Part shown: positions 14,618 to 56,787 of the stretch, piece by piece
How the letters are laid out: every line of letters starts with the position of its first letter
Position numbering within the stretch: position 1 is the stretch's first letter
Origin: a phage
Strand: one strand, 5' to 3'
Length of the DNA: 60,068 nucleotides
Sequence record: PZ445425.1
The notes under the pieces: generated by a model
Told to the model about the DNA's origin: nothing
Seen by the model: the letters and a program-made list of their open reading frames with translations, nothing else
Databases searched by the model: none
Translations under genes and position numbers: made by a program

Positions 14618-17600
14618 TGCCACCAGCAATAATTGGAGCAGCGATAGCTTTAGGTGCGTCGGCTGCTGCTGCGGCTAGTATTATTTCGGCTACTACCGCT
14701 CTCGTTATCGGTATTGCTGCAACCGCGGCAGGTGCTCTTTTGTCTAAGACACCAAATATGAACTTTGATGCTTACAAGGGGCAGCAAGAGCGTAAACAGG
14801 TTCTGCGTGCAGCTACAGCGTCACGTTCTGTTGTATATGGCACGACTGTAGCGTCCGGACTATTAGCATTTGCGGAGGAAGAAGCTGGAGATCAAGATGA
14901 AGGTGAATGGATGCATCTTGTTGTCGTTCTTGCTAGTCATAAATTGGAAGGTATTGAAACGATTTGGTTGGGTGATGACGGAATTGATTGGTTTGGTGAA
15001 AACGCTACTTGGGAGTTCCATAACGACCGTCAGACTGTTGACCCATTCATGTTAAAACATTGTCCTTCCTGGAAGGAGGATATGATTGGCAAGGGTATTG
15101 CATGGCTACGTTTAAGCTTAAAGTTTGATGCTGAAAAATTCCCATCCGGTTTGCCAAACGTCAAGGTGTTGAAAAAGGGACGTAGAGTTTATGACCCACG
15201 TTCCGGTCAAACTGTCTTTAGCGATAACGCTGCTCTTGTTATTCTTGATTATTTCCGCACGTATTTAAAGCGCAAGGACGAGAATATTAACTGGGACCAA
15301 TTCAAGGAAGCTGCTAACATCTGCGATGAGTTTGTTACTAACGCAGATAATACTACGGAAAGACGCTATCGCATTAACGGTGAGTTTGAAGTGGACGAAG
15401 CACCTGCCAAAATCCTTGATGCTATGCTTGAAGCTTGCGGTGGGGAACTAACCTATATTGGCGGCAAGCATGGTCTGTTAGTTGGCGCTTATTACGGCCC
15501 AGCTACCATGACTTTGGATGAAAGCTGCATTGCTGGGGATATTAAAATAATCCCTGAGACATCTTATAAAGAGCGTACAAATACCATTACAGGTACATTC
15601 GTCGACCCGAAGCAAACATATGCTGAAGCAGATTTTCCTCCAGTTGTGGTTAAGGAATGGGTGGAAAAAGATGGCGGTGAAATAACGCAAGACATGGATT
15701 TCCGCTTTGTTACAAGTGAATATCAAGCTCAACGTCTTGCTAATATTATTTTACGTCGTAAGCGTGTTGGTCGAACAATTGAAGTGCCGTGTAACATGAA
15801 GGGGTATAAATTCCGCCCCGGCATGTATGTCAACGTAACCATTTCAAATATCGGAATGAAAAACGTTGAGATGCGCGTTACTAAATGGTCATTCGATCCT
15901 AAAGGTGGGATTAATCTTGTCCTTCGTCAAGATTTCCTGGAAATGTGGGACGACGCTATTGGTAAACCAATGGAGCGCCCGGATCTGGTAGACCTTCCGT
16001 CTGGTGCTATTGCTCAACCGCAAAACCTTCAGTATCAGGTATTGCAAATTAGCGATGTTGTGCAGGGTGTTTTAACGTGGAGCAATATTGGACAGGTGGC
16101 ATATAACCGCGTAGCCGTGCGACAGGGAGGTACAACGGTTTGGACCGCACAAGTCCCTGGCCAAAACGTTCGCGTTACTGGGCTGCTGCGGGGCGCGTAT
16201 ACAGCGCATGTTCAAGCGGTAGCTTATAGCGGGGCAATATCGCCTGAAGCATATCTGGAATTTAATATTCAGGCTCCGCCGCCACCAACATCTATTGAAG
16301 TACAACAGGGTTACTTTGCTATAAGCCTGATCCCTAAATCTGCGGACCTTGCAAACGTTAGCACGCAGTATGATTTTTGGACTTCCGGTGAAACAAGATT
16401 GTCATCTGTGTCTACAGACGTTGTTGAGCGTGAAGCAACTCGTAAAGGTATGGGCACAACCTGGACTTCGGAAGGTTTGAAGAATGACCACACTTATTAC
16501 TGGTATGTCCGCACCATTAACGCTTTCGGATCATCTGCATTTGTAGAAGTAGCTGCATTGTGCTTTACAACAGCTACAGATTTGATGCCACAAATTGATT
16601 CTGAATTCAAGAAGACGGAGACTTATAAAGAGCTCACTACTGAAATCACAGGTGTTAAAGATGGAGTTACTCAGCTTAGCCAAACTGTAGTGCAAACTGA
16701 AAAGCGTTTAAGTCAAAGCGTTAGCAATGTTCAACAAAGCGTTATCACTTTGGATGGTGTTGTTCAGGATCATGGCGTTACCATTAATAAACAAGGACAG
16801 CTCATCGATGCACAGGGTAAGTTGATTGACACTCAAGGTAAGACTATTGAAACGGTTAGCGCGACCGTGCAGGAGACAAGTAAAGCAGTTGTAGATCTGG
16901 AAGGTAATGTTAACGCTCAATGGGGTGCTAAAGTACAGGTAGATAGTAAAGGGCAAAAATACGTTGCTGGTATGCAGTTAGGTATGGAAGGGTCCGGTGG
17001 AGCTGTTCAGTCTTACTTCATGGTAAGCGCTAACAACTTTGCTATCTATAACCCGACAAATAGCGTAGCAGAACTAGCATTTGCTGTTAAGAACGGTCAA
17101 GTGTTCATGAAGGCTGCGTTTATTGAAAATGGTACTATTGACAGCGCTAAAATTTCAAATCAAATTCAGTCAACAAACTACGCAAACAATAGCGCGGGTT
17201 GGATGATTAACAAGAATGGTAGCGCTCAGTTTAACAACGTAACGATAAGAGGTACTGTATACGCTAGCAACGGATCTTTCACAGGCACAGTGAACGCAAC
17301 AAGCGGTAAATTCAAGGGTACTGTGGAAGCTACCAGTTTTGTGGGTGATGTTGCGAATATGTGTGTCATTGCTGAGTCTGCAATACCAAACACACAAACT
17401 ACAAGTTCAAGAACCTGGACAAAAACTTTCAAAGACTCATCTGGTTCAACATTATCTAAAGACTTTGTGTTGCTATTAAGTTATACTTTAACCGCATATA
17501 AATCAAATCAGGCAAGTCGTATAATTGTGACTGCTAACATAGGGGGGACATCAATTACAAGGAGGATTGAGCGAGCTGCTAATGGTCCTGCCATGGATGT

Positions 17601-30134: not shown

Positions 30135-30671
30135 TTACAGGCTATAGTTTACGTGGCATTTCGAAGTTTCTTCGATGGTGCATTCTACAAGTTGAACACC
30201 ATGTTCGTCAAGCAGTAGCGGACCAATTACTTCAACCATATATGCAGCTAGGTTTTCCGCAGTTGGGTTGAACGGCAAAGATACCAGTGAATCGTTAAAA
30301 GCTTTAAGATCTTCATCCCCTTCACCGAAAGTAGGCCAACCGCGTTCAGATTGAGTATCCGTTTCAATACAACATTGCAGTCCGTTGATCAACATATCCT
30401 TTTCCCAATGTAGAAACTTATGATCCCAGTTATCTTCTAGCCACTGGCAGAGCGTAGCTTTAACCACACTAAAGTCAATCACGCGCCCAACGCTGTCCAG
30501 ACCGTCCTCAATCAGCTTTCCTCGTGTCACTACTTTTCCGCATCCATGCTTCGGAGCAACCTTAAAGTGAAACTTATAGTTGTGACCGTGGAGGTGGCGA
30601 CATTTGCTTTCATGACCTACAACACGATGTCCGGCGCAAATTTCATGGGAACGAATTACTGTATAGCTCAT
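30135..30671 (-). CDS. queD: 6-carboxy-tetrahydropterin synthase
   Basis: CxxxHGH zinc motif (EICAGHRVVGHESKCRHLHGH). Confidence 0.8.
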   Translation of the reverse strand: MSYTVIRSHEICAGHRVVGHESKCRHLHGHNYKFHFKVAPKHGCGKVVTRGKLIEDGLDSVGRVIDFSVVKATLCQWLEDNWDHKFLHWEKDMLINGLQCCIETDTQSERGWPTFGEGDEDLKAFNDSLVSLPFNPTAENLAAYMVEVIGPLLLDEHGVQLVECTIEETSKCHVNYSL

Positions 30672-31258
30672 TTTAATACCTCTTTAGACTGTTCAATTTC
30701 TAATGCACGCTGTGCGGATGCAATAATGTCTTTCAAATCTTCTACCAGACTTTTATGACCACGTTCGCCCGGCTGCAACGCCTTTTTAATCAAATGTTGT
30801 AAAGCTGGGTTAGTTGTTTTCCAAGCTTCCAAGACATCATACACGTCCACGATGCATTTTACAACATTGCCGTTTTGATCTTTACCATAAATAATTTTCT
30901 GATATTTATTCATGGGAATTTTAGATGGTTCGTATTTCGTAAAAACTGCACCATTAAATGTATTACTTATGCTTATTTCACTAGAAGGGTGATGATACAC
31001 TCCGGAGCGAGTATTTTCCTGGGCTTGTTTGACGTAATCATCCGCAACGATATATCGCCAGGCTATAATATCTTGAATTTTATAAGGGCTATTCTCATCC
31101 ATAGCCGAACGCCCTTCTATAGCCCAGTCCCATCCATGTAATAGATTCTTAACGTGTGTGCCGTTGCGCAAACGAACTTCAAACTTTTCATTGCGAAGAA
31201 AGATTGGCATTCCTTTCCCATCGTGCTGGTGCCAAATTTTATTAAGATTATCTTTCAT
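30668..31258 (-). CDS. hypothetical protein embedded in deazaguanine cluster
   Basis: 196-aa ORF between queD and the transporter gene; no motif recognised. Confidence 0.5.
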   Translation of the reverse strand: MKDNLNKIWHQHDGKGMPIFLRNEKFEVRLRNGTHVKNLLHGWDWAIEGRSAMDENSPYKIQDIIAWRYIVADDYVKQAQENTRSGVYHHPSSEISISNTFNGAVFTKYEPSKIPMNKYQKIIYGKDQNGNVVKCIVDVYDVLEAWKTTNPALQHLIKKALQPGERGHKSLVEDLKDIIASAQRALEIEQSKEVLK

Positions 31259-45202: not shown

Positions 45203-45269
45203 GATTTGCCTTTACCTCTGATCCGTCTAGCTGTACTATTAACCCATAAAGAGAGCGGAGGATTACAAA

Positions 45270-45494
45270 ATGGTCATGCTGAATAAAGTATATAGCACAA
45301 TGGGCTCGGATTATAAAGTTGTACGTCACCCGCGTACTGGTAAATTTGAAGCATACATCCGTCCAATGGGTGAAGGTTGGATGTATTACGGTACTTATGA
45401 TGACGCTGAGCAAGCTTATAAAGAAGCGGAAAGTGTAGCGGAAGCATCCGAAATTATGGCAAGGTACGACGTCGATGATTACTACCTTAACTAA
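45270..45494 (+). CDS. hypothetical small protein (lone plus-strand gene in minus module)
   Basis: 74 aa with RBS GGAGG; followed by a terminator. Confidence 0.45.
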   Translation: MVMLNKVYSTMGSDYKVVRHPRTGKFEAYIRPMGEGWMYYGTYDDAEQAYKEAESVAEASEIMARYDVDDYYLN

Positions 45495-45498
45495 CAAT

Positions 45499-45525
45499 AA
45501 AGGGCCAAATAGCCCTTTATTTATT
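45499..45525. terminator. bidirectional terminator
   Basis: aaagggc-caaata-gcccttt followed by a T-run. Confidence 0.65.
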
Positions 45526-47863
45526 CCTCTTCTCCTAAGTTTGCCATAATACCTTCAACATCTTGCGTAATGCGCCAAGCTGCGCCAGTGAATCCCAGTT
45601 TGATAGTCTCCTCCCGTGTTACCGGAACAAGCGCACCCATAGCAACCATCTCTTTGATCGTAGACTCAATTGCCGCGGACAATCCGTGGTGATAGTTTTT
45701 AAACGCGGACTTACTTGCAAGACGAGTAGTAATATCACCCCGCGTGATAATGCCTTCCTTACGCAGATCTACACGTTTAACTTTCACCCAATCTTTAGTT
45801 AGATAATTCACACAAACCTGGCACATAGTACGGATACGAGCTTCGTCATTAGTACCGATACCCCCACTATGCCATTCCTTCATAATGATATCCTGTCCAT
45901 GACGCACAAAGTCCAAGGCCCATTGAACATGATAGGTCTGCACAACCGGATTGATCCAGTTTTCTCCCACAGCTAACAGGGCGGATAGACGTAACACCTT
46001 CAGGTGAGCACGGTTCCAGGGCTGACGGATTGCTTCGTCTTTGGTTGCGTTAATATTACGGTCACATTCGTCGTTAAACTGATCACATAATGCTTCCGCA
46101 TCCGGACTAAACTGCACTTCAATACTTTGATGCTTTGCCATTGCGACTAAGGTGTGGTTAACAAGATGGCACACCATATCCCGCAAATGCTGATCCATTG
46201 TAGTCTGCTGGTTCTTGTTTAAAGGTGGTCGATCCCCTTCATAGCGGACAACATGGAAACGGGATAAGAAACCGTCCTCCATCATTTCACGGGTTAATGC
46301 TTCAAAGAACGTATCCGGTGTCGTTTCACCCATGATGCTATAGGCCACACCTTGTTGAGCTTCCGTATTATTAGCCTTATCAGAATAAGACATACCACCG
46401 ACAATAGACATCTGACCGGACTTTTGATAAACATCGGTAAGGTCGTTCTTGAAGCTTTGCATCGGTGAACCTGCTGGCGCCGTTGCCATCGCTTTAATAA
46501 TCTTACCAAACTCACCATTCAAGTTGATAAAAGATTGTTTGTCCGCAAAAGATTTACGCAGTGCGGAGCCGGAAGCACATCGGTCAAAAGATACAAAGCT
46601 ATGAATCTGCGGAAACGGTTCCTGAAGCTGGCTAACTATATTAGATAGCCCACTGTTCAACGTTTCTTTACCAACACCAGAACGAGCAATAAGGACGAAA
46701 TATCCATTAAGACCCGATTGCGGAATCTGCCAGACCTTCCCGCATACCCCAGCCATAAAGCCTAGCGCTGTCACAATAGAAATTTCTTTCACTGGTCGGA
46801 CGGAGGCTTTATAGATGTATTTCGCAAGCTCCCCAGCAAGCCCCGGCGGCCAGTCAATAGCGGTTGCATCAATAGATGTACTTTCTGCAACTACGGTCTG
46901 CCCCTGTGTTGTTTCAACAGTTACGGGCATTTCCACTACCTGTTGCATTGCACTGTGTGCCGCTTGCATACGGGCAGCATAATCCCGCGCCAGCGCCGCT
47001 ACGTTTTCCTGGGCAATGCGCTCACGCTCCATGCGACCGCGACACATACGCAAGCAACGGTCAATATGAACATTGTTCTTATTAGCCTTCTCACGTTTGC
47101 CCAGTGCGCTATAACGGAACAGACGACGACATTGCTCATTACTTTCCGTGTAAAATGCATACATAGAAATAAGGGCAAGATCTGCTTCAGACTGGGAAGG
47201 GAAACCCATTTCAACCCATTCACCATTGAATAACCGCGCATACTTATCGCCGTTATCCGCTTCAAGTGCACGCTGATGAATAGTTGCATCATCTTCTACC
47301 GGATCTTTTTCTACCAGTTCAATTTCATATGTCTTGCGCTGAAGATCAATTTCATTCACAAGCATAGTAAGGTAATGATCACGTTCTGCAACTGGTTTGT
47401 TATAAACAGGATTGCCCGTGCAAATAATAAAACGCTCCTGACTATAAACCTCGACACCATCACGTCGACGACCTTTACCGATGTTCCCTCTTAACCACAG
47501 GTGGACGCCCAAGCCTGAGCGACTTACTTCGGTGTAAGTATCGAACGCGGTCATGATCTGTTCGAAGCGGCGCAACTGTTCTGGCGTCGTGTGCTTCTTG
47601 GGATCCGGTTCGTTGGTTGCGTTCTTCACATCCAGGTCGATGCAGGTGAAAGGGTCTTGCGCAGTAAGCACGAAGCCTATATAAGGTTTGTTGAAATGCG
47701 CGGCGCAACCTTTGGCAGCTTCAAACGTCATTAGCATATCCGGATCGGTAACGTCCGCCGCCATAAGACGTCCGATATCGTTGTCCCATACGAGCGGCTT
47801 TTTATCCGCATCGGCGACCGCCCATTGTGGGAAAGCTTTAATTTCAGCGGGAAATAGTTCCAT
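45521..47863 (-). CDS. primase-polymerase / helicase-like replication protein
   Basis: 780 aa; N-terminal Prim-Pol-like region with IDLD motif, central P-loop-like GVGKET. Confidence 0.5.
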   Translation of the reverse strand: MELFPAEIKAFPQWAVADADKKPLVWDNDIGRLMAADVTDPDMLMTFEAAKGCAAHFNKPYIGFVLTAQDPFTCIDLDVKNATNEPDPKKHTTPEQLRRFEQIMTAFDTYTEVSRSGLGVHLWLRGNIGKGRRRDGVEVYSQERFIICTGNPVYNKPVAERDHYLTMLVNEIDLQRKTYEIELVEKDPVEDDATIHQRALEADNGDKYARLFNGEWVEMGFPSQSEADLALISMYAFYTESNEQCRRLFRYSALGKREKANKNNVHIDRCLRMCRGRMERERIAQENVAALARDYAARMQAAHSAMQQVVEMPVTVETTQGQTVVAESTSIDATAIDWPPGLAGELAKYIYKASVRPVKEISIVTALGFMAGVCGKVWQIPQSGLNGYFVLIARSGVGKETLNSGLSNIVSQLQEPFPQIHSFVSFDRCASGSALRKSFADKQSFINLNGEFGKIIKAMATAPAGSPMQSFKNDLTDVYQKSGQMSIVGGMSYSDKANNTEAQQGVAYSIMGETTPDTFFEALTREMMEDGFLSRFHVVRYEGDRPPLNKNQQTTMDQHLRDMVCHLVNHTLVAMAKHQSIEVQFSPDAEALCDQFNDECDRNINATKDEAIRQPWNRAHLKVLRLSALLAVGENWINPVVQTYHVQWALDFVRHGQDIIMKEWHSGGIGTNDEARIRTMCQVCVNYLTKDWVKVKRVDLRKEGIITRGDITTRLASKSAFKNYHHGLSAAIESTIKEMVAMGALVPVTREETIKLGFTGAAWRITQDVEGIMANLGEEE

Positions 47864-49099: not shown

Positions 49100-49123
49100 A
49101 AATCCTCCTAGTCAACTGGTGAA

Positions 49124-49394
49124 GCCACTATAAAACAGACATTAGCTATTTGCAAGGATTGTTTTAATATAGTGCTTAGTGGCGTACATAGTGGGCAAAA
49201 TGTGTATAGTGCGCCGTTACTGGCTTTATAAAAGTTTGCCACTATAAACCACTATTCCACTATTCACTAATTTTTATTTTTGACACAGAGTAAAGTTTAT
49301 AAGTTTACGGTTTTCCCCTTATTACCCCGTTTTCAAACAAAGAATTAGTAGTAGTAGTGAAACATAGTGAATGCCACTATACCACTATACTATG
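49124..49394. repeat. iteron-like CACTAT/ATAGTG repeats
   Basis: At least 11 copies of CACTAT or its complement in both orientations, including GCCACTATAAACCACTATTCCACTATTCACTAA. Confidence 0.65.
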
Positions 49395-49429
49395 CATTTT
49401 ATGAAATCTCGGTTGGCTCGCTCCCTATA

Positions 49430-49560
49430 AACTTATAAACTTTCAGTCAACTAACTAAAACAAATATAATTAAACTAATAGTAAATAATAACTATAAATA
49501 TATATAAAATAAGGATTTATTATTAATGTATATATTACCTATTGGTATTATTTGACGAGT
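49430..49560. other. AT-rich tract (possible DNA-unwinding element)
   Basis: Over 80 percent A+T with tataaac and tatata repeats, adjacent to the iterons. Confidence 0.5.
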
Positions 49561-49767
49561 TTATGGTCATTATATAAACCATATAAAACTTCATAAACCT
49601 GAACGGATGCAGATCAAAAATGAGAAGTCAAGTGCTTTGAGGGAAATTTATTGAACTATTGTGATCGGAAGGTATATCAAGCTATAATGCGCTTAATCGC
49701 GGGATATTGGAGGAGGACTTTATTGAGCGGTTAACCGGACCAGTAGGAGGGCTGGCCCGGAAGTAGT

Positions 49768-50094
49768 TTAGAGCTGTACAGGTGTGAAGTGGGCTAGCGT
49801 ATCGTCGGACATAATACCCGACAGTTTTTCGCTTATCCAGTCGGACCAAATGCTATCCGCTTCCTGGCGGTGCACAAACCAGATTTCGGATGTGCCTTCT
49901 TTGCGCATCGGTTGCACTTCTACAAGGAACTTGTCCTGCATAAGGCGGGTGAAGCAGACGCTGGTCATTGGAACCGGCTTTTCGTCTTTATTGTAATAAG
50001 GGACCAATATTTTATTTCCGAAGTCGGCAACTTCATAAACCGTTCCTTTGCGAAGCCCTCTGATGTCTGTGTAAGAGCGGATGAATGTTCTCAT
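49768..50094 (-). CDS. hypothetical protein
   Basis: 108-aa ORF. Confidence 0.45.
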   Translation of the reverse strand: MRTFIRSYTDIRGLRKGTVYEVADFGNKILVPYYNKDEKPVPMTSVCFTRLMQDKFLVEVQPMRKEGTSEIWFVHRQEADSIWSDWISEKLSGIMSDDTLAHFTPVQL

Positions 50095-51497: not shown

Positions 51498-51814
51498 AAT
51501 GCGCCTCCAAGTGTGGTTAAAAAGTAGTACCGTGTTGCTATGGGTACATAATAGCGATGCATTGTGATATTGAATAGGCCAAACGTGCTATTTTGATCTT
51601 GTTTTGCATCTAGTGAAAATTATGCTTGTATCTCATATTTAGCACTAATGGCCTAACTAACATCACACGATCTGGTCTACGCGCGTGCATACATACATAT
51701 AAGGAGCGCCGGACAGGATCGGACCGACCAGGGGCGCACAACCGTCCCTATCTGCCCTGTAAACTGGTCCACGGACCAGTCCAAAATATTTTTATAAAAA
51801 GATGCAAAAAGGTG

Positions 51815-51843
51815 TAGACATATGATCAATCTAACCCTACTAT
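51815..51843 (+). promoter_or_regulatory. candidate sigma70-like promoter for the rightward small-gene module
   Basis: TAGACA, 17-nt spacer, TACTAT about 50 nt upstream of the first plus-strand gene. Confidence 0.25.
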
Positions 51844-51892
51844 ATACACATACCGCAAGGGTACTACAAATTAACTTAAAGGGGTTTACATC

Positions 51893-52096
51893 ATGTCTAT
51901 TCGTAACGTTATCTGTGTAATGGTTGCAAACAATAATTTTGGTTTCGTAGAAGGTGCACAGTATAAAATGGATCTTAAAACTCGTTGCATTATTAAAGGT
52001 GAAGAGGAATGGCGTGCAGTGGTAGAAGATCGCGGCAATATCTACATCTATAGTTCTGATACAATGAAAACTATTGCCGTCTTCGAATTTAACTAA
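51893..52096 (+). CDS. hypothetical small protein
   Basis: 67-aa ORF. Confidence 0.45.
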   Translation: MSIRNVICVMVANNNFGFVEGAQYKMDLKTRCIIKGEEEWRAVVEDRGNIYIYSSDTMKTIAVFEFN

Positions 52097-52164
52097 GCTA
52101 ACTTATACAATGGGCATTAGTACAGTGCCCATTAATAAGCTAACTAATTATAACGAGGTGTATT

Positions 52165-52350
52165 ATGTCTACGAACACTGTGAAGTCTGTAAATAATAGC
52201 AACAGAACATTTAAAGTTATGTGCTATGGCGAATATATCGGAGACGTTACAGCTCCCAGCCGCATCGCTGCGGAAGACTTCGTCCGTACAGAGATGGAGC
52301 TTGGAATCGCCGATTTTGCAGACCTTATCGAACTAGTAGAGGTGTACTAA
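52165..52350 (+). CDS. hypothetical small protein
   Basis: 61-aa ORF with RBS. Confidence 0.45.
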   Translation: MSTNTVKSVNNSNRTFKVMCYGEYIGDVTAPSRIAAEDFVRTEMELGIADFADLIELVEVY

Positions 52351-52351
52351 C

Positions 52352-52495
52352 ATGTCACGCAAATACACGCTTACACGCGCACAACATGCTTTATTATTGC
52401 AGGTTATGCGCATGGAGTACGAAGAGACTACATGGGCGCAAGCTATGCAGACAGGGCGAGAGTTCTACGCGCAACTAATAGCACAAAATGCCTAG
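52352..52495 (+). CDS. hypothetical small protein (47 aa, absent from ORF track)
   Basis: ATG 1 nt after upstream stop; translated by hand. Confidence 0.35.
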   Translation: MSRKYTLTRAQHALLLQVMRMEYEETTWAQAMQTGREFYAQLIAQNA

Positions 52496-52553
52496 ACAAC
52501 ATGATCGGTCTGGTGGATACTACACACATCAACCAAACAACGGGGTAAACAAA

Positions 52554-52781
52554 ATGCGTAGTTTCAAATGTGTAAGCGTAAATGCTACTGGTAACGGTCT
52601 GTTCACGGCAGGTAATGTATATGACTTCAACATGGAAAGTTATAAAGACACAACGCTTACAGGTGTAATGTTCGGTGGCGCTCGTGTCGTTCGCTGCCAT
52701 TTAAACAAGAACACGGAAAATGAATATACCCTTATCAGTCGCTACACGGGCGAGCCGTTAGCTGTGTTCCATGCAGCTTAA
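52554..52781 (+). CDS. hypothetical small protein
   Basis: Track ORF 52488..52781 trimmed to internal ATG. Confidence 0.4.
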   Translation: MRSFKCVSVNATGNGLFTAGNVYDFNMESYKDTTLTGVMFGGARVVRCHLNKNTENEYTLISRYTGEPLAVFHAA

Positions 52782-52807
52782 GCTATAACGCACACAGCGC
52801 CGCGCTA

Positions 52808-52930
52808 GCGAGCTAATGTACATAGGTAATGGTAATGCATTAGCTCGGGCGAAACAGGCGCACAGCGTCGCACACAGCTCGCACAGCGCACACAGACCCA
52901 CGCAGGCCCAGCCGCGCGACCCGACCCATC
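52808..52930. repeat. structured GC-rich repeat region
   Basis: 10-bp inverted repeat cgagctaatg / cattagctcg enclosing tandem ggtaatg; then repeated CGCACAG / CACACAG units. Confidence 0.55.
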
Positions 52931-53248
52931 CTTTTCCAGGTACTTGGATCGCTACGCCCTGCCCTGTCTATCCTGATAGTATCCTTGTTTGAAAATCTAA
53001 CTCGTCAACTATGTTGTTGCCGACATACACACCCATCACTTTACTATCCACCTACATACATGACCCCACCTACCTTCTTTTTGAATATATTGCGCTCATC
53101 CTTTCTAAATATATGGATTTTGGTAGTAAATTCTGAGTCGTCAACGTATAATTCGTCTTGTAGTTTCTCCATAGCTACCATCTTTAAGCGGATGCAACCA
53201 ATTTCTATCAATTCACACCTGTTTTAGAGCAGCAAGGAGGAGGTATTT

Positions 53249-53500
53249 ATGTGCGACACCCGTGCAAGCGCTGCACCCAGCACCTCCAGCAATGTGGTTA
53301 CAGAGGTAAATGCAATGCGATTAGGCCCATATCGCGGGTATTATGGTCGGGCAGCATGGAATGACGCTACTCAACGGTTTGAAGGCTGGATTATCTGTCC
53401 GGAACGTGTTAAATTTCATTCCGTAAAAGAGAAAAATATCGTTCTTAATTTTCAAAAATGTGTCACTAAATATGTAGAGGAGCAAGAAGAATGCGTGTAG
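53249..53500 (+). CDS. hypothetical small protein
   Basis: 83 aa, RBS AAGGAGGAGG. Confidence 0.5.
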   Translation: MCDTRASAAPSTSSNVVTEVNAMRLGPYRGYYGRAAWNDATQRFEGWIICPERVKFHSVKEKNIVLNFQKCVTKYVEEQEECV

Positions 53501-53781
53501 AAGAGATTGTTGAAGGTAAAGAGTATCGTTTACTGACCGATATTGGTGGTGTCGGATATACTCCTGATGATGCAGCTTGTTTTAACGTCCTTCCGCAAGG
53601 CGCTATCGTAACAGTTAACAAGGTTGTTACCGATTTATACAGCGTTCATGACGGCAGATGGCCACATGCAGTTATTGTTACCTTCGGTAAAGATGGATAT
53701 GTGGATCTTGACGGCGAAGATGACGCTTACGAAGTTGCTTATACAGGTCTTGTAAGCCCCAATTTCCTGGAAGAAGTATAA
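53491..53781 (+). CDS. hypothetical protein
   Basis: 96 aa, overlaps upstream stop. Confidence 0.5.
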   Translation: MRVEEIVEGKEYRLLTDIGGVGYTPDDAACFNVLPQGAIVTVNKVVTDLYSVHDGRWPHAVIVTFGKDGYVDLDGEDDAYEVAYTGLVSPNFLEEV

Positions 53782-56539: not shown

Positions 56540-56601
56540 TTTTCTTGCTATCACATAACCCTTCATTGTATTGTGTACCCATCGAATAAGAGGGGTACAC
56601 A

Positions 56602-56787
56602 ATGACCAAACTATACGCCGGATTGTTTTTATTTGCGACGTTAATGTTCGCTGGACTTTATACCTATACAGTAGTCGAACAACCTTCCACGGTTATCCGA
56701 ATCTTTGCAAGTACAGGGCTTTGCATCTGTCTTATTCTATTTGTTTTATGCATTGTTATTATCCAAGACCAAAGGAAAGTTAAATGA
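56602..56787 (+). CDS. small membrane protein
   Basis: 61 aa with two hydrophobic helices; start codon follows a hairpin gtgtaccc...gggtacac. Confidence 0.45.
   Translation: MTKLYAGLFLFATLMFAGLYTYTVVEQPSTVIRIFASTGLCICLILFVLCIVIIQDQRKVK

What the first reader, a model, noticed from the sequence alone, without database searches (positions are those of the whole stretch)
52790..53248. Highly structured GC-rich repeat region followed by an AT-rich tract
No plausible ORF spans this roughly 450-bp stretch. It contains a perfect 10-bp inverted repeat with a tandem ggtaatg loop (52809-52847), then CGCACAG/CACACAG repeats and GC-rich runs, then AT-rich sequence up to the next RBS. This composition is unlike the rest of the genome. 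Possibilities include a structured ncRNA, a second origin or packaging-related site, or a regulatory region.
Basis: seen in the sequence. Interest (0 to 1): 0.5.

Follow-up and report, generated by a model that had tools for sequence, protein, structure and literature searches.

The report
Conserved non-coding boundary in Seuratvirus phages
This 460-base gap between early genes of a Seuratvirus coliphage is a real, conserved, non-coding element that most likely ends one transcription unit through the host factor Rho and starts the next; it is not a folded RNA gene, an essential replication origin or a packaging site.

Summary
The window is a Seuratvirus (Queuovirinae) genome, 95% identical to phage slur01 over this stretch. 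"Highly structured" is not: RNA folding z-scores for both halves and both strands lie between +0.01 and -0.75, and Rfam gives no match. No ORF in the stretch survives comparison with diverged relatives.

The stretch is conserved in about 35 phages and four diverged lineages. An 80-nt core (52916-52995) is 77-86% identical. Third codon positions of the neighbouring gene are only 49-58% identical. Two local hairpins at the left edge keep their pairing through compensatory changes.

The + (sense) strand from 52851 to 53120 is C-rich and G-poor. It has the most negative GC skew in the genome and holds the only sense-strand windows with C/G of 3 or more in the + gene blocks. This bias persists where the sequence has been replaced by unrelated DNA, and in a non-homologous gap of the sister genus Nonagvirus. 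A + strand promoter-like site always follows it.

In the relative DruSM1, published deletions inside the element, including the core, gave viable phage.

Best reading (confidence 0.4): protective hairpins, then a Rho-loading tract, then a promoter and 5'UTR. The function of the core is unknown.

The parts
52782..52798 (+). Hairpin H0 at the left boundary, directly after the stop codon of the upstream gene. It is weak in this phage (GCTAT...ACAGC with one A.C mismatch).
   Evidence: In the diverged lineages it is a clean 7-9 bp stem. STP-SP5 has GCGCTGT-N7-ACAGCGC, and L038 has GCGCUGUAC...GUGCAGCGC with a U.G pair. Conservation of the element starts here, while the upstream gene varies between phages.
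52809..52847 (+). Hairpin H1: a perfect 10-bp stem (CGAGCTAATG / CATTAGCTCG) with a 19-nt loop ending in GGTAATGGTAATG.
   Evidence: STP-SP5 has GAGCTAGCC / GGCTAGCTC at the same place, with three pairs changed on both sides. yong3, L038 and the SHIN8/DruSM1 variant have different hairpins at the same place. The single-sided changes in Seurat and Greed are G.U wobbles on the + strand. For the H0+H1 module the + strand z-scores are -2.2, -4.3, -0.9, -2.0 and -3.1. The - strand values are -0.9, -3.8, -0.5, -0.6 and -2.0. No T-run follows the stem, so it is not an intrinsic terminator.
52856..52903 (+). CA-rich direct repeats: GCACAGCG / GCACACAG units about 9-12 nt apart, with a further copy in the 3' arm of H0.
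   Evidence: families D1-D4. At least two GCACAGCG/T copies are kept in STP-SP5, yong3 and L038. The motif clusters only here in the genome.
52851..53120 (+). Sense-strand C-rich, G-poor untranslated tract (C 34%, G 16%; 29 C against 4 G in 53024-53101). Proposed Rho-loading (rut) region.
   Evidence: It has the most negative GC skew in the genome at five window sizes. It holds the only sense-strand 78-nt windows with C/G of 3 or more in the + gene blocks: the maximum is 7.2 and the next best is 2.9. C/G of 1.5-2.1 is kept in all lineages and in the non-homologous replacement found in SHIN8 and DruSM1. A non-homologous counterpart exists in Nonagvirus (C/G 2.8).
52916..52995 (+). Most conserved core: GACCCGACCCATCCTTTTCCAGGTACTTGG ... 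TGTCYATCCTGATAGTA. Function unknown.
   Evidence: It is 86%, 84% and 77% identical to STP-SP5, L038 and yong3. Codon position 3 of the adjacent conserved gene is 49-58% identical, and positions 1-2 are 80-87%. Its motifs occur once in the genome. Its counterpart in DruSM1 (L043 2768-2839) was deleted with viable phage recovered.
52999..53029 (+). A 31-nt insertion shared with slur01 and SD04 only. Together with the 7 nt before it, it forms a partial copy (AAAATCTAACTCGTCAAC) of 53128-53145.
   Evidence: (family D5).
53064..53076 (+). CCCCACCTACCTT motif. In relatives this is the junction after which gene cassettes are inserted.
   Evidence: It is conserved in all four lineages. HNH endonuclease or other small-gene cassettes start right after it in Skure, WildeMaa, SA80RD and SD04.
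53115..53152 (.). Conserved block GGATTTTGGTAGTAAATTCTGAGTCGTCAACGTATAAT, holding overlapping promoter-like sites. The + strand site has -35 TAGTAA at 53124-53129 and -10 TATAAT at 53147-53152. The - strand site has -35 TTGACG at 53144-53139 and -10 CAAAAT at 53122-53117.
   Evidence: The + site is the best + strand candidate at the same aligned position in the E. coli group, STP-SP5 and L038 (scores 10.0, 10.9 and 8.4). The - site is the best in the E. coli group and yong3 (10.9 and 10.7). This support is weak, because scores of 10 or more occur about once per kb.
53179..53194 (+). Invariant 16-mer CATCTTTAAGCGGATG in the presumed 5'UTR of the downstream gene.
   Evidence: It is identical in the E. 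coli group, STP-SP5 and L038 and absent from yong3. Its only other approximate occurrence in the genome has 2 mismatches.
53234..53251 (+). RBS AAGGAGGAGG and the ATG of the conserved 83-aa downstream gene (phrog_24875).
   Evidence: The gene is linked to the element in all Seuratvirus lineages.

Best explanation
The stretch is a conserved, non-coding boundary between two rightward early transcription units.

Proposed mechanism (inferred):
1. + strand transcripts leave the last short upstream gene, whose stop codon ends at 52781.
2. They form one or two hairpins (H0, H1).
3. They then run for about 270 nt as untranslated, poorly structured, C-rich and G-poor RNA. This is the kind of RNA on which E. 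coli Rho loads.
4. Rho terminates transcription within or just beyond the tract.
5. 3' exonucleases trim the RNA back to the hairpins.
6. The next unit starts at a promoter directly downstream. In this phage that is probably -10 TATAAT at 53147-53152, giving a 5'UTR of about 90 nt with a conserved 16-mer and a strong RBS.

The 80-nt core is probably the binding site of an unidentified factor that tunes this boundary.

Shown here: non-coding status, conservation, hairpin compensation, the composition bias and its persistence across replaced sequence, and dispensability for plaque formation in a relative.

Inferred: Rho action, use of the promoter, and the role of the core.
For: - No conserved ORF in any frame.
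- The sense-strand tract 52851-53120 has the most negative GC skew in the genome. It contains the only sense-strand windows with C/G of 3 or more in the + gene blocks, using the RhoTermPredict criteria read.
- Elsewhere in the genome, sense-strand windows with C/G of at least 2.5 lie, with one exception (17377-17463, C/G 2.9), in what appear to be gaps between transcription units: 45.25-45.46 kb, after the primase gene and its hairpin, and 49.1-49.8 kb.
- The C>G bias (1.5-2.1) is kept in every lineage. It is also kept where about 290 nt were replaced by unrelated sequence in SHIN8 and DruSM1.
- Nonagvirus FritzHoffmann has a non-homologous 361-nt C-rich tract (C/G 2.8) between a terminator-like hairpin with a T-run and an AT-rich region read by eye as promoter-like.
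- The tract is not unusually structured.
- Hairpins H0 and H1 sit at its 5' edge, keep pairing through compensatory and wobble changes, and fold better on the + strand.
- A + strand promoter-like site follows the tract in every variant. It is at a conserved position in three lineages. In HNH/other cassette variants it is replaced by stronger sites: score 16-17 (TTGAAA, 16-17 nt, TG-extended TAAAAT) in DruSM1 and phiG7, 11.3 in the others. No comparable leftward promoter is present there.
- Deletions inside the element are tolerated in DruSM1, as expected for a modulatory element.
- From established knowledge (the background section of PMC6407284 read): Rho binds unstructured, ribosome-free, C-rich, G-poor RNA of at least 70-80 nt.
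Against: - There are no transcript data for any Seuratvirus, so neither termination nor promoter use is shown.
- No GGN8YG pause consensus lies within 150 nt downstream of the best rut window.
- The 'regularly spaced C' criterion is met only by part of the tract.
- rut sites normally need composition, not sequence. The model therefore does not explain why the core is as conserved as first and second codon positions, nor why GCACAGCG repeats are kept.
- The CACAG repeat segment itself is poor in YC dimers.
- In Nonagvirus and Craquatrovirus a terminator-like hairpin with a T-run (read by eye) precedes the biased tract. A Rho site there would be only a backup.
- The promoter scores in this window (10.0 and 10.9) are ordinary for this genome.
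Confidence: 0.4

Rival explanations
1. It is a DNA-level regulatory switch. The core, the GCACAGCG repeats and the block at 53115-53152 would be operator sites for a phage-encoded DNA-binding protein. That protein would control overlapping divergent promoters, and so the timing of the downstream genes.
For: - The conservation comes in blocks of 10-30 nt separated by variable spacers.
- The core is under selection as strong as at codon positions 1-2.
- The motifs are unique in the genome.
- Overlapping + and - promoter-like sites lie in an almost invariant 38-nt block.
- The imperfect palindrome CCAGGTACTTGG and the direct repeats are visible in the sequence.
Against: - It does not explain the strand-asymmetric G depletion, or why that bias survives sequence replacement.
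- No DNA-binding protein was identified among the flanking small genes. Pfam gave nothing and PHROGs gave only families of unknown function.
- The leftward promoter block is lost in the HNH-cassette variants while the left half is kept.
- Deletion of the core is tolerated in DruSM1.
Confidence: 0.2
2. It encodes a non-coding RNA that acts as an RNA. One form would be a C-rich decoy or sponge that titrates Rho or another host RNA-binding protein. Another would be a nut/put-like cis-acting antitermination RNA built on the H0/H1 hairpins.
For: - The + strand hairpins show compensatory and wobble changes.
- The sense-strand composition bias is conserved across genera.
- In Providencia phages PSTCR7 and PSTCR4 the comparable gap follows a terminator-like hairpin with a T-run and contains promoter-like sites of its own, both read by eye. 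That would make it a separate untranslated transcript.
- The order stop codon, hairpin, C-rich tract resembles lambda nutR-tR1 (my own knowledge).
Against: - No Rfam match even at E-values up to 10.
- Overall folding z-scores are near zero.
- RNAalifold gives -16 kcal/mol over 245 columns, with an unfavourable covariation term.
- No promoter precedes the element and no terminator follows it in Seuratvirus.
- The DruSM1 supplementary table lists no defence system next to either deletion.
- Similarity to the Providencia gap is not significant (E 0.1-5).
Confidence: 0.15
3. It is a dispensable or secondary replication origin. The short iterons (GCACAGCG), hairpins and adjacent lower-GC DNA would be recognised by the phage prim-pol-type primase. 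Alternatively it could be fired through an R-loop made by a leftward transcript whose G-rich RNA pairs with the C-rich + strand.
For: - Direct repeats about 10 nt apart lie next to a lower-GC tract.
- It is a unique site in the genome.
- The 780-aa primase carries an NrS-1 polymerase HBD domain. Members of that family start DNA synthesis at specific template sequences (my own knowledge).
- A leftward promoter-like site at 53144-53117 points into the strand that would give G-rich RNA.
- Origins of T4 and T7 are individually dispensable (my own knowledge).
Against: - Deletions inside the element gave viable DruSM1 phage. Deletions in the AT-rich region matched by eye to window 49.1-49.8 kb, which is packed with CCACTAT repeats, could not be obtained, making that region the better origin candidate.
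- The leftward promoter block is missing from five relatives that keep the left half.
- The 'AT-rich' part is only 39% GC.
- The one DnaA-box-like sequence I saw by eye is not conserved in STP-SP5.
- The cumulative GC-skew minimum lies near 49 kb, not here.
Confidence: 0.12
4. It is a decayed gene or a leftover of homing-endonuclease traffic with no function of its own.
For: - Several GenBank records annotate ORFs across it: Seurat gp70 (126 aa), CAjan (92 aa) and bas22_0078 (171 aa).
- The locus is an insertion hot-spot for HNH/other cassettes.
Against: - Block-wise conservation is well above the neutral proxy: the core is 77-86% identical against 49-58% at codon position 3.
- Indels break every frame.
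- The hairpins show compensatory changes.
- The element is kept in all four lineages.
Confidence: 0.03

Closest known systems
Rho-dependent terminators with a rut site, for example lambda tR1 downstream of cro, where rutA and rutB flank the boxB hairpin
   Same: It is an untranslated tract directly after a stop codon, with C well above G over more than 80 nt and little structure. A hairpin sits at its upstream edge, and the next genes follow downstream. It lies in the early region of a coliphage.
   Different: - Rho dependence is untested.
- No boxA/boxB match and no N-like protein were identified.
- The tract is much longer (about 270 nt).
- It contains an 80-nt core and short repeats conserved at the sequence level, which rut sites do not need.
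- No consensus pause site was found downstream.
Iteron-type origins of phages and plasmids: lambda ori, and P4 ori with its octamer iterons bound by the primase-helicase alpha protein
   Same: Short direct repeats roughly one helical turn apart lie next to lower-GC DNA. The site is unique in the genome, and the phage encodes a large primase with a specialised DNA-binding (HBD) domain.
   Different: - The repeats are only 8 nt long, few in number, and lie inside a strand-biased tract.
- The adjacent DNA is only mildly AT-rich.
- Parts of the element are dispensable in DruSM1.
- A better origin candidate exists at 49.1-49.8 kb.
Cis-acting antitermination RNAs: lambda nut, HK022 put
   Same: One or two conserved RNA hairpins lie just downstream of an early gene and upstream of a termination-prone tract.
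   Different: The H1 loops are long (13-19 nt) and unlike boxB. There is no sequence similarity and no Rfam match. A boxA-like CATCTTTAA (my reading, by eye) lies about 330 nt downstream, not upstream, of the hairpins.
The non-coding gaps of Nonagvirus (FritzHoffmann 51666-52703) and Craquatrovirus (PSTCR7 30430-31072)
   Same: They sit at a comparable place within an early block of short unannotated genes. The sense strand has C above G (C/G 2.8 and 1.5-1.8). Promoter-like, AT-rich DNA (read by eye) follows before the next gene.
   Different: There is no significant sequence similarity. Both are preceded by a terminator-like hairpin with a T-run. The Providencia gap is A/C-rich, with ATAACA repeats of about 15 nt period instead of CACAG repeats.

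Membership tests
Rho-dependent terminator (rut site) | At least 70-80 nt of nascent RNA that is C-rich and G-poor (C/G above 1) | tested here: met
   C/G is 2.1 over 52851-53120 and reaches 7.2 in 78-nt windows. This is the genome's extreme on the sense strand.
Rho-dependent terminator (rut site) | Ribosome-free (untranslated) RNA | tested here: met
   No ORF is conserved in any frame. The upstream stop codon ends at 52781 and the next start codon is at 53249.
Rho-dependent terminator (rut site) | Little secondary structure in the tract | tested here: met
   Folding z-scores are -0.11 (left half) and -0.75 (right half) on the + strand. The only conserved helices lie upstream of the tract.
Rho-dependent terminator (rut site) | Regularly spaced C residues (every 11-13 nt within 78 nt, the RhoTermPredict criterion) | tested here: inconclusive
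   The criterion is met for windows within 52858-53061 and 53139-53222 at C/G of 2 or more. It is not met by the windows with the highest C/G.
Rho-dependent terminator (rut site) | RNA polymerase pause site within about 150 nt downstream | tested here: inconclusive
   No GGN8YG consensus occurs in 53102-53251. Hairpin-type pause sites were not scored.
Rho-dependent terminator (rut site) | Termination that depends on Rho (bicyclomycin or rho-mutant sensitive) | not testable with these tools
   This needs transcript mapping or reporter assays.
Intrinsic (Rho-independent) terminator | GC-rich hairpin followed directly by a U-tract | tested here: not met
   The scan found no terminator-like site within 52782-53248. 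H1 is followed by GGGCGAAACAGG. The 'terminator' annotated over H1 in SA80RD therefore lacks this defining feature.
Known structured RNA family (Rfam) | Match to a covariance model, or a conserved global fold | tested here: not met
   The only hit is a chance-level Hatchet match outside the element (E 5.2). Nothing reaches gathering score in the whole window. RNAalifold gives -16 kcal/mol over 245 columns with a covariation term of +1.4. No tRNA or tmRNA was found.
Iteron-type replication origin | Array of direct repeats next to an AT-rich unwinding element | tested here: inconclusive
   Four or five short repeats are present. The adjacent DNA is 39% GC against a genome value of 44.7%.
Iteron-type replication origin | Required in cis for replication | tested here: not met
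   Published DruSM1 deletions of L043 2628-2738 and 2768-2839 (the core) gave viable phage (bioRxiv 10.1101/2024.04.14.589459, Table S1). Caveats: the assay was permissive, since a DNA polymerase deletion was also scored as obtained, and the repeats themselves were not deleted.
cos / pac packaging site | Located at or next to the terminase genes and required for packaging | tested here: not met
   The window starts at terL, so terS is placed by position at the window end, about 6.3 kb away. TerL is Terminase_6N, T4-type. Internal deletions are viable in DruSM1. The physical genome ends of Seuratvirus were not found in the papers searched.
Lambda-type nut site | boxA (CGCTCTTA-like) followed by a boxB hairpin that binds an N protein | tested here: inconclusive
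   By eye, a boxA-like CATCTTTAA lies at 53179-53187, downstream of the hairpins and in the wrong order. The H1 loop is 13-19 nt. No N-like protein was sought beyond the Pfam and PHROGs scans of the neighbouring genes.

The most novel reading that the evidence does not exclude
The element could be a previously undescribed, Queuovirinae-wide cis-regulatory module. In this reading the H0/H1 hairpins and the 80-nt core recruit a phage-encoded factor, or act directly on RNA polymerase or Rho. They would then switch an unusually long Rho-loading tract between termination and read-through. Alternatively the transcribed tract could serve as a decoy that titrates host Rho. Either way it would be a new antitermination or anti-Rho device, unrelated in sequence to nut, put or Psu.
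Probability: 0.15. Interest if true: 0.65.

Novelty: new member of a known kind. Interest (0 to 1): 0.35.

Why it matters
The Seuratvirus and Nonagvirus phages are widely used as models for 7-deazaguanine DNA modification and are part of the BASEL collection. I found no transcript map or description of their transcription programme in the papers I searched.

If the reading is right, this element marks the first internal boundary of the rightward early region. It would also show that these phages rely on host Rho there.

It gives a concrete reason to remove several spurious ORFs from GenBank records: Seurat gp70, CAjan AJT60560, bas22_0078, and the minus-strand ORFs of 42-50 aa.

The 80-nt core is conserved as strongly as protein-coding positions, yet it can be deleted in the laboratory. 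That makes it a defined target for finding a new regulator.

If the reading is wrong, the strand-biased tract shared across three genera still needs an explanation.

Tried and rejected
- Protein-coding readings. The + strand ORFs annotated in Seurat, CAjan and KurtStettler, and the 55-aa minus-strand ORF, were rejected because of frameshifts and stops in CAjan, STP-SP5, L038 and yong3.
- Known RNA families, tRNA and tmRNA: nothing found.
- Global RNA structure on either strand: no support.
- Intrinsic terminator at H1: no T-run.
- A repeated promoter or terminator motif class: rejected, because all conserved motifs occur once in the genome.
- Host or plasmid mimicry: no similarity in 5,426 E. 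coli genomes or in PLSDB plasmids.
- More diverged homologues.
  - The metagenome scan added only L038 as a new lineage.
  - Four IMG/VR pattern scans added no new lineage.
  - The GGTACT...CCATYCTGATAGTA pattern returned 12 unrelated contigs that look protein-coding. The GGTAG...GTCA pattern returned only chance matches.
- Homology with the Providencia gap: collinear short matches only, E 0.1-5, so I treat it as an analogue and not a homologue.
- By-eye comparisons with sigma-E, sigma-32, sigma-54, LexA, IHF, DnaA and RfaH-ops consensus sequences for the core found nothing with correct spacing or conservation. These are not tool results.
- cos site: the window merely starts at terL by convention, and no paper I searched gave Seuratvirus genome ends.
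- Transcriptome data for a Seuratvirus: none found.
Full report
**What the window is**

The stretch matches 35 phage records, nearly all classified as Seuratvirus (Queuovirinae). The closest is slur01 at 95% identity, followed by Greed, KurtStettler, CAjan and Seurat at 86-90%. The window starts at the terL gene, as some other records do, so its ends are a convention and not the physical genome ends.

The gene layout was taken from the annotated relative KurtStettler and from the ORF lists:
- Structural genes lie on the + strand at about 1-23.5 kb.
- Replication and 7-deazaguanine genes lie on the - strand at about 23.5-51 kb.
- A block of small + strand genes runs from about 51.9 kb to the end of the window, and in a circular map continues into the terminase genes.

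The finding lies about 1 kb into that + strand block.

**Checking the observation**

The sequence-level claims are correct.
- A perfect 10-bp inverted repeat sits at 52809-52818 / 52838-52847, with a 19-nt loop carrying GGTAATGGTAATG.
- CGCACAG / CACACAG-type direct repeats lie between 52788 and 52903.
- The left part is GC-rich (60% GC, peaking at 68%).
- A strong RBS lies before the ATG at 53249.

Three points need correcting.
- First, the right part is only mildly AT-rich (39% GC against 44.7% for the genome). What stands out is G depletion: 8% G against 32% C in 53001-53112.
- Second, "highly structured" does not hold. Against dinucleotide shuffles the minimum free energies give z = -0.11 and -0.21 for the left half (+ and - strand) and -0.75 and +0.01 for the right half.
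- Third, a 10-bp perfect inverted repeat is not improbable on its own. The genome has 11 such hits at 7 loci, against a simulated mean of 1.55 and a maximum of 8.

**It is non-coding**

The window has small ORFs on both strands, and GenBank records annotate the homologous stretch inconsistently:
- a 126-aa + strand ORF in Seurat;
- a 92-aa ORF in CAjan;
- a 171-aa ORF in KurtStettler;
- minus-strand ORFs of 42-50 aa in Greed, CSP1C, ECP2304 and SHIN8;
- a "terminator" in SA80RD;
- nothing at all in slur01 and STP-SP5.

In the alignments, the + frames are broken by several 1-nt and 11-nt indels in Salmonella phage STP-SP5. The 55-aa minus-strand ORF is frameshifted in CAjan and carries in-frame stops in STP-SP5, L038 and yong3.

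**It is conserved and unique**

Besides the E. coli group, three diverged lineages carry the element:
- Salmonella phage STP-SP5 (70% identity);
- Hafnia phage yong3 (63%);
- a metagenome contig, L038 (69%).

Conservation begins exactly after the stop codon of the upstream gene, which itself differs between phages. It runs to the conserved 83-aa downstream gene.

It is an 80-nt core at 52916-52995 (GACCCGACCCATCCTTTTCCAGGTACTTGG ... TGTCYATCCTGATAGTA). The core is 77-86% identical to the three diverged lineages. In the adjacent gene, third codon positions are 49-58% identical and first and second positions are 80-87%.

All conserved motifs occur only once in the 60-kb genome. There is no similarity in complete E. 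coli genomes or in plasmids. Rfam finds nothing.

**Local structure**

Two hairpins at the left edge are conserved as structures rather than as sequences.
- H1 is CGAGCTAATG / CATTAGCTCG in the window. In STP-SP5 it is GAGCTAGCC / GGCTAGCTC, with three pairs changed on both sides. L038, yong3 and the SHIN8/DruSM1 variant each have a different hairpin at the same position.
- H0 (GCGCTGT-N7-ACAGCGC) is clear in STP-SP5 and L038 and degenerate in the E. coli group.

Within the E. coli group, the single-sided stem changes in Seurat and Greed give G.U pairs on the + strand, although KurtStettler, L018 and L040 carry stem mismatches. The 5' half of the loop varies freely.

For this 80-nt module the + strand z-scores are -2.2, -4.3, -0.9, -2.0 and -3.1 in five lineages. 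In every case this is lower than the - strand value (-0.9, -3.8, -0.5, -0.6, -2.0). That points to function in the + strand RNA.

Beyond these hairpins, RNAalifold finds only a weak consensus (-16 kcal/mol over 245 columns) with an unfavourable covariation term.

**Composition**

From 52851 to 53120 the + strand, which is the sense strand of the surrounding genes, has 34% C and 16% G. The element has the most negative GC skew in the genome at 78, 100, 150, 200 and 260 nt (z -3.1 to -4.1).

I applied the published RhoTermPredict criteria (a 78-nt window, C/G above 1, regularly spaced C; read).
- The element holds the only sense-strand windows with C/G of at least 3 in the 31.7 kb of + strand gene blocks. 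The maximum is 7.2 and the next best is 2.9.
- In the - strand block, sense-strand windows with C/G of at least 2.5 also fall only in what appear to be gaps between transcription units. One follows the primase gene and its perfect hairpin at 45.25-45.46 kb. The other is at 49.1-49.8 kb.

The bias (C/G 1.5-2.1) is kept in every lineage. It is also kept in SHIN8, Skure and DruSM1, where about 290 nt of the middle were replaced by unrelated sequence.

The sister genus Nonagvirus (FritzHoffmann) has, between its short early genes and the genes leading to the primase, a non-homologous gap with the same design. By eye, a terminator-like hairpin with a T-run is followed by 361 nt with 37.7% C and 13.3% G on the sense strand, and then by AT-rich, promoter-like DNA. 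Providencia phages PSTCR7 and PSTCR4 have a comparable A/C-rich gap, but their sequence similarity to the element is not significant.

Composition therefore appears to be selected in its own right.

**What follows the tract**

A simple sigma-70 weight matrix puts the best + strand candidate at the same aligned position in three lineages: -35 TAGnAA at 53124-53129, a 17-nt spacer, and -10 TATAAT or TATACT at 53147-53152. The scores are 10.0 (E. coli group), 10.9 (STP-SP5) and 8.4 (L038). An overlapping leftward candidate (TTGACG, 16 nt, CAAAAT) is the best - strand site in the E. coli group and yong3. Such scores occur about once per kb, so these sites alone are weak evidence.

The variants are more telling. 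In five relatives (Skure, WildeMaa, phiG7, SA80RD, DruSM1) the right half has been replaced by an HNH homing-endonuclease or other small-gene cassette, and SD04 carries a cassette inserted ahead of it. In all six a + strand promoter-like site directly follows the C-rich tract. In DruSM1 and phiG7 it is TTGAAA, 16-17 nt, then a TG-extended TAAAAT, scoring 16-17. In the others it scores 11.3. No comparable leftward site is present.

The order hairpins, C-rich tract, rightward promoter, gene is therefore kept even when the parts are exchanged.

**Experimental evidence from the literature**

A preprint built an ORF-deletion library of the Seuratvirus DruSM1 (bioRxiv 10.1101/2024.04.14.589459). Two spurious ORFs inside this element were deleted, and Table S1 scores the mutants as obtained.

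Mapping the primers onto the DruSM1 sequence shows that one deletion removes 111 nt of the replaced middle (L043 2628-2738). The other removes 72 nt that correspond to the conserved core (L043 2768-2839). The table lists no defence system next to either deletion.

In contrast, two spurious ORFs could not be deleted. I matched their AT-rich locus, by eye, to window 49.1-49.8 kb.

One caveat applies: the assay was permissive. A DNA polymerase deletion was also scored as obtained.

**Interpretation**

The best-supported reading is a boundary between two rightward transcription units.
- Untranslated, poorly structured, C-rich and G-poor RNA is the known substrate of E. coli Rho.
- The tract starts right after a stop codon.
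- It is the only tract of this kind on the sense strand of this gene block.
- It is preceded by hairpins that could stop 3' exonucleases.
- A promoter always follows it.

This also fits dispensability in rich laboratory conditions. I put the confidence at 0.4, because there are no transcript data, no consensus pause site was found, and the model does not explain the sequence-level conservation of the core or of the GCACAGCG repeats.

The rivals are:
- a protein-operated DNA switch (0.2);
- an RNA that acts as such, for example a Rho decoy or a nut/put-like antitermination site (0.15);
- a dispensable secondary origin, possibly linked to the NrS-1-type prim-pol domain of the primase (0.12);
- functionless remnant DNA (0.03).

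A packaging site is unlikely. TerL is a T4-type (Terminase_6N) large terminase, a type I associate with headful packaging. By position, terS lies 6.3 kb away, and the internal deletions are viable.

**Comparison with known systems and novelty**

The element works most like a Rho-dependent terminator region such as lambda tR1 with its neighbouring hairpin. Membership cannot be claimed, however, because Rho dependence is untested and some predictor criteria are only partly met. It is not an intrinsic terminator and not a member of any Rfam family. It fails the essentiality expected of a sole origin.

I found no description of the element in the papers searched. I rate it a new member of a known kind, a phage inter-operon regulatory region, of moderate interest. 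The unexplained core, and the composition bias shared across three genera, are the parts that could hold something new.

Noticed in passing
window 49100-49800: A non-coding, very AT-rich region (49421-49620 has 8.5% G). It holds at least 9 copies of CCACTAT(A) / (T)ATAGTGG in both orientations and several promoter-like sites. Two spurious ORFs in an AT-rich locus of DruSM1, which I matched to this region by eye, could not be deleted. It is a better candidate than the finding for the early-promoter cluster and/or the replication origin.
   Followed up: partly
window 45250-45521: A perfect 10-bp inverted repeat (45496-45521) lies directly downstream of the primase gene. It is followed by a sense-strand C-rich tract (C/G up to 3.4). 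This is the same 'hairpin plus C-rich tract' design seen in Nonagvirus.
   Followed up: no
window 45521-47863 (- strand): The 780-aa 'DNA primase' matches the NrS-1 polymerase HBD domain (PF22763, E 1.7e-6). It is therefore a prim-pol-type enzyme, a family I recall as starting DNA synthesis at specific template sequences.
   Followed up: partly
L013, L014, L003, L017, L043, L011 (relatives), equivalent to window ~53077: The locus is an insertion hot-spot. HNH homing-endonuclease genes (WildeMaa, phiG7, SA80RD, Skure, DruSM1) or unannotated small ORFs (SD04) sit after the CCCCACCTACC motif or its counterpart. Each brings its own extended -10 promoter-like site. In the HNH variants the first 22 codons of the downstream gene are replaced.
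   Followed up: partly
L002 1535-1915, L004 1532-1810, L006 1617-2132, L005 1814-1942, L009 1852-2004: GenBank CDS features annotated inside the element (Seurat gp70, CAjan AJT60560, bas22_0078, and minus-strand ORFs of 42-50 aa) are mutually inconsistent and not conserved. They are probably spurious.
   Followed up: yes
L059 6667-7704 (FritzHoffmann, record 51666-52703): A 1-kb unannotated gap in a Nonagvirus. By eye, a terminator-like hairpin with a T-run is followed by a 361-nt C-rich, G-poor sense-strand tract and then AT-rich DNA with repeated CTTTATAAAT motifs.
   Followed up: partly
L041 730-1372 and L042 738-1381 (Providencia phages PSTCR7, PSTCR4): A 640-nt unannotated gap holds ATAACA-containing repeats with a period of about 15 nt and is A/C-rich on the sense strand. 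By eye, a terminator-like hairpin with a T-run and promoter-like sites (including TGGTATAAT) precede it. It also contains TACATAGTGGGC, which matches window 49186-49197.
   Followed up: partly
window 52999-53029: A 31-nt insertion shared only with slur01 and SD04. Together with the 7 nt before it, it forms a partial copy (AAAATCTAACTCGTCAAC) of 53128-53145.
   Followed up: no
window 53249-53500 and 53491-53781: In CSP1C the homologue of the first gene and the gene at the second position are annotated 'RNA-binding protein Hfq' and 'antitoxin HicB'. Pfam gave no match for either window protein, and PHROGs places them in families of unknown function.
   Followed up: partly
window 56570-56603: An 11-bp perfect inverted repeat (ATTGTGTACCC ... 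GGGTACACAAT) spans what looks like an RBS (AAGAGGGG) and ends next to a start codon. It may be a translational control hairpin.
   Followed up: no
OR880647.1 (ECP2304, 63,590 bp) and LR025197.1 (SLUR75): Each record contains two places matching the query. SLUR75 starts about 56 nt upstream of the element. ECP2304 is about 3.5 kb longer than its relatives, which may reflect a terminal duplication or an assembly artefact.
   Followed up: no
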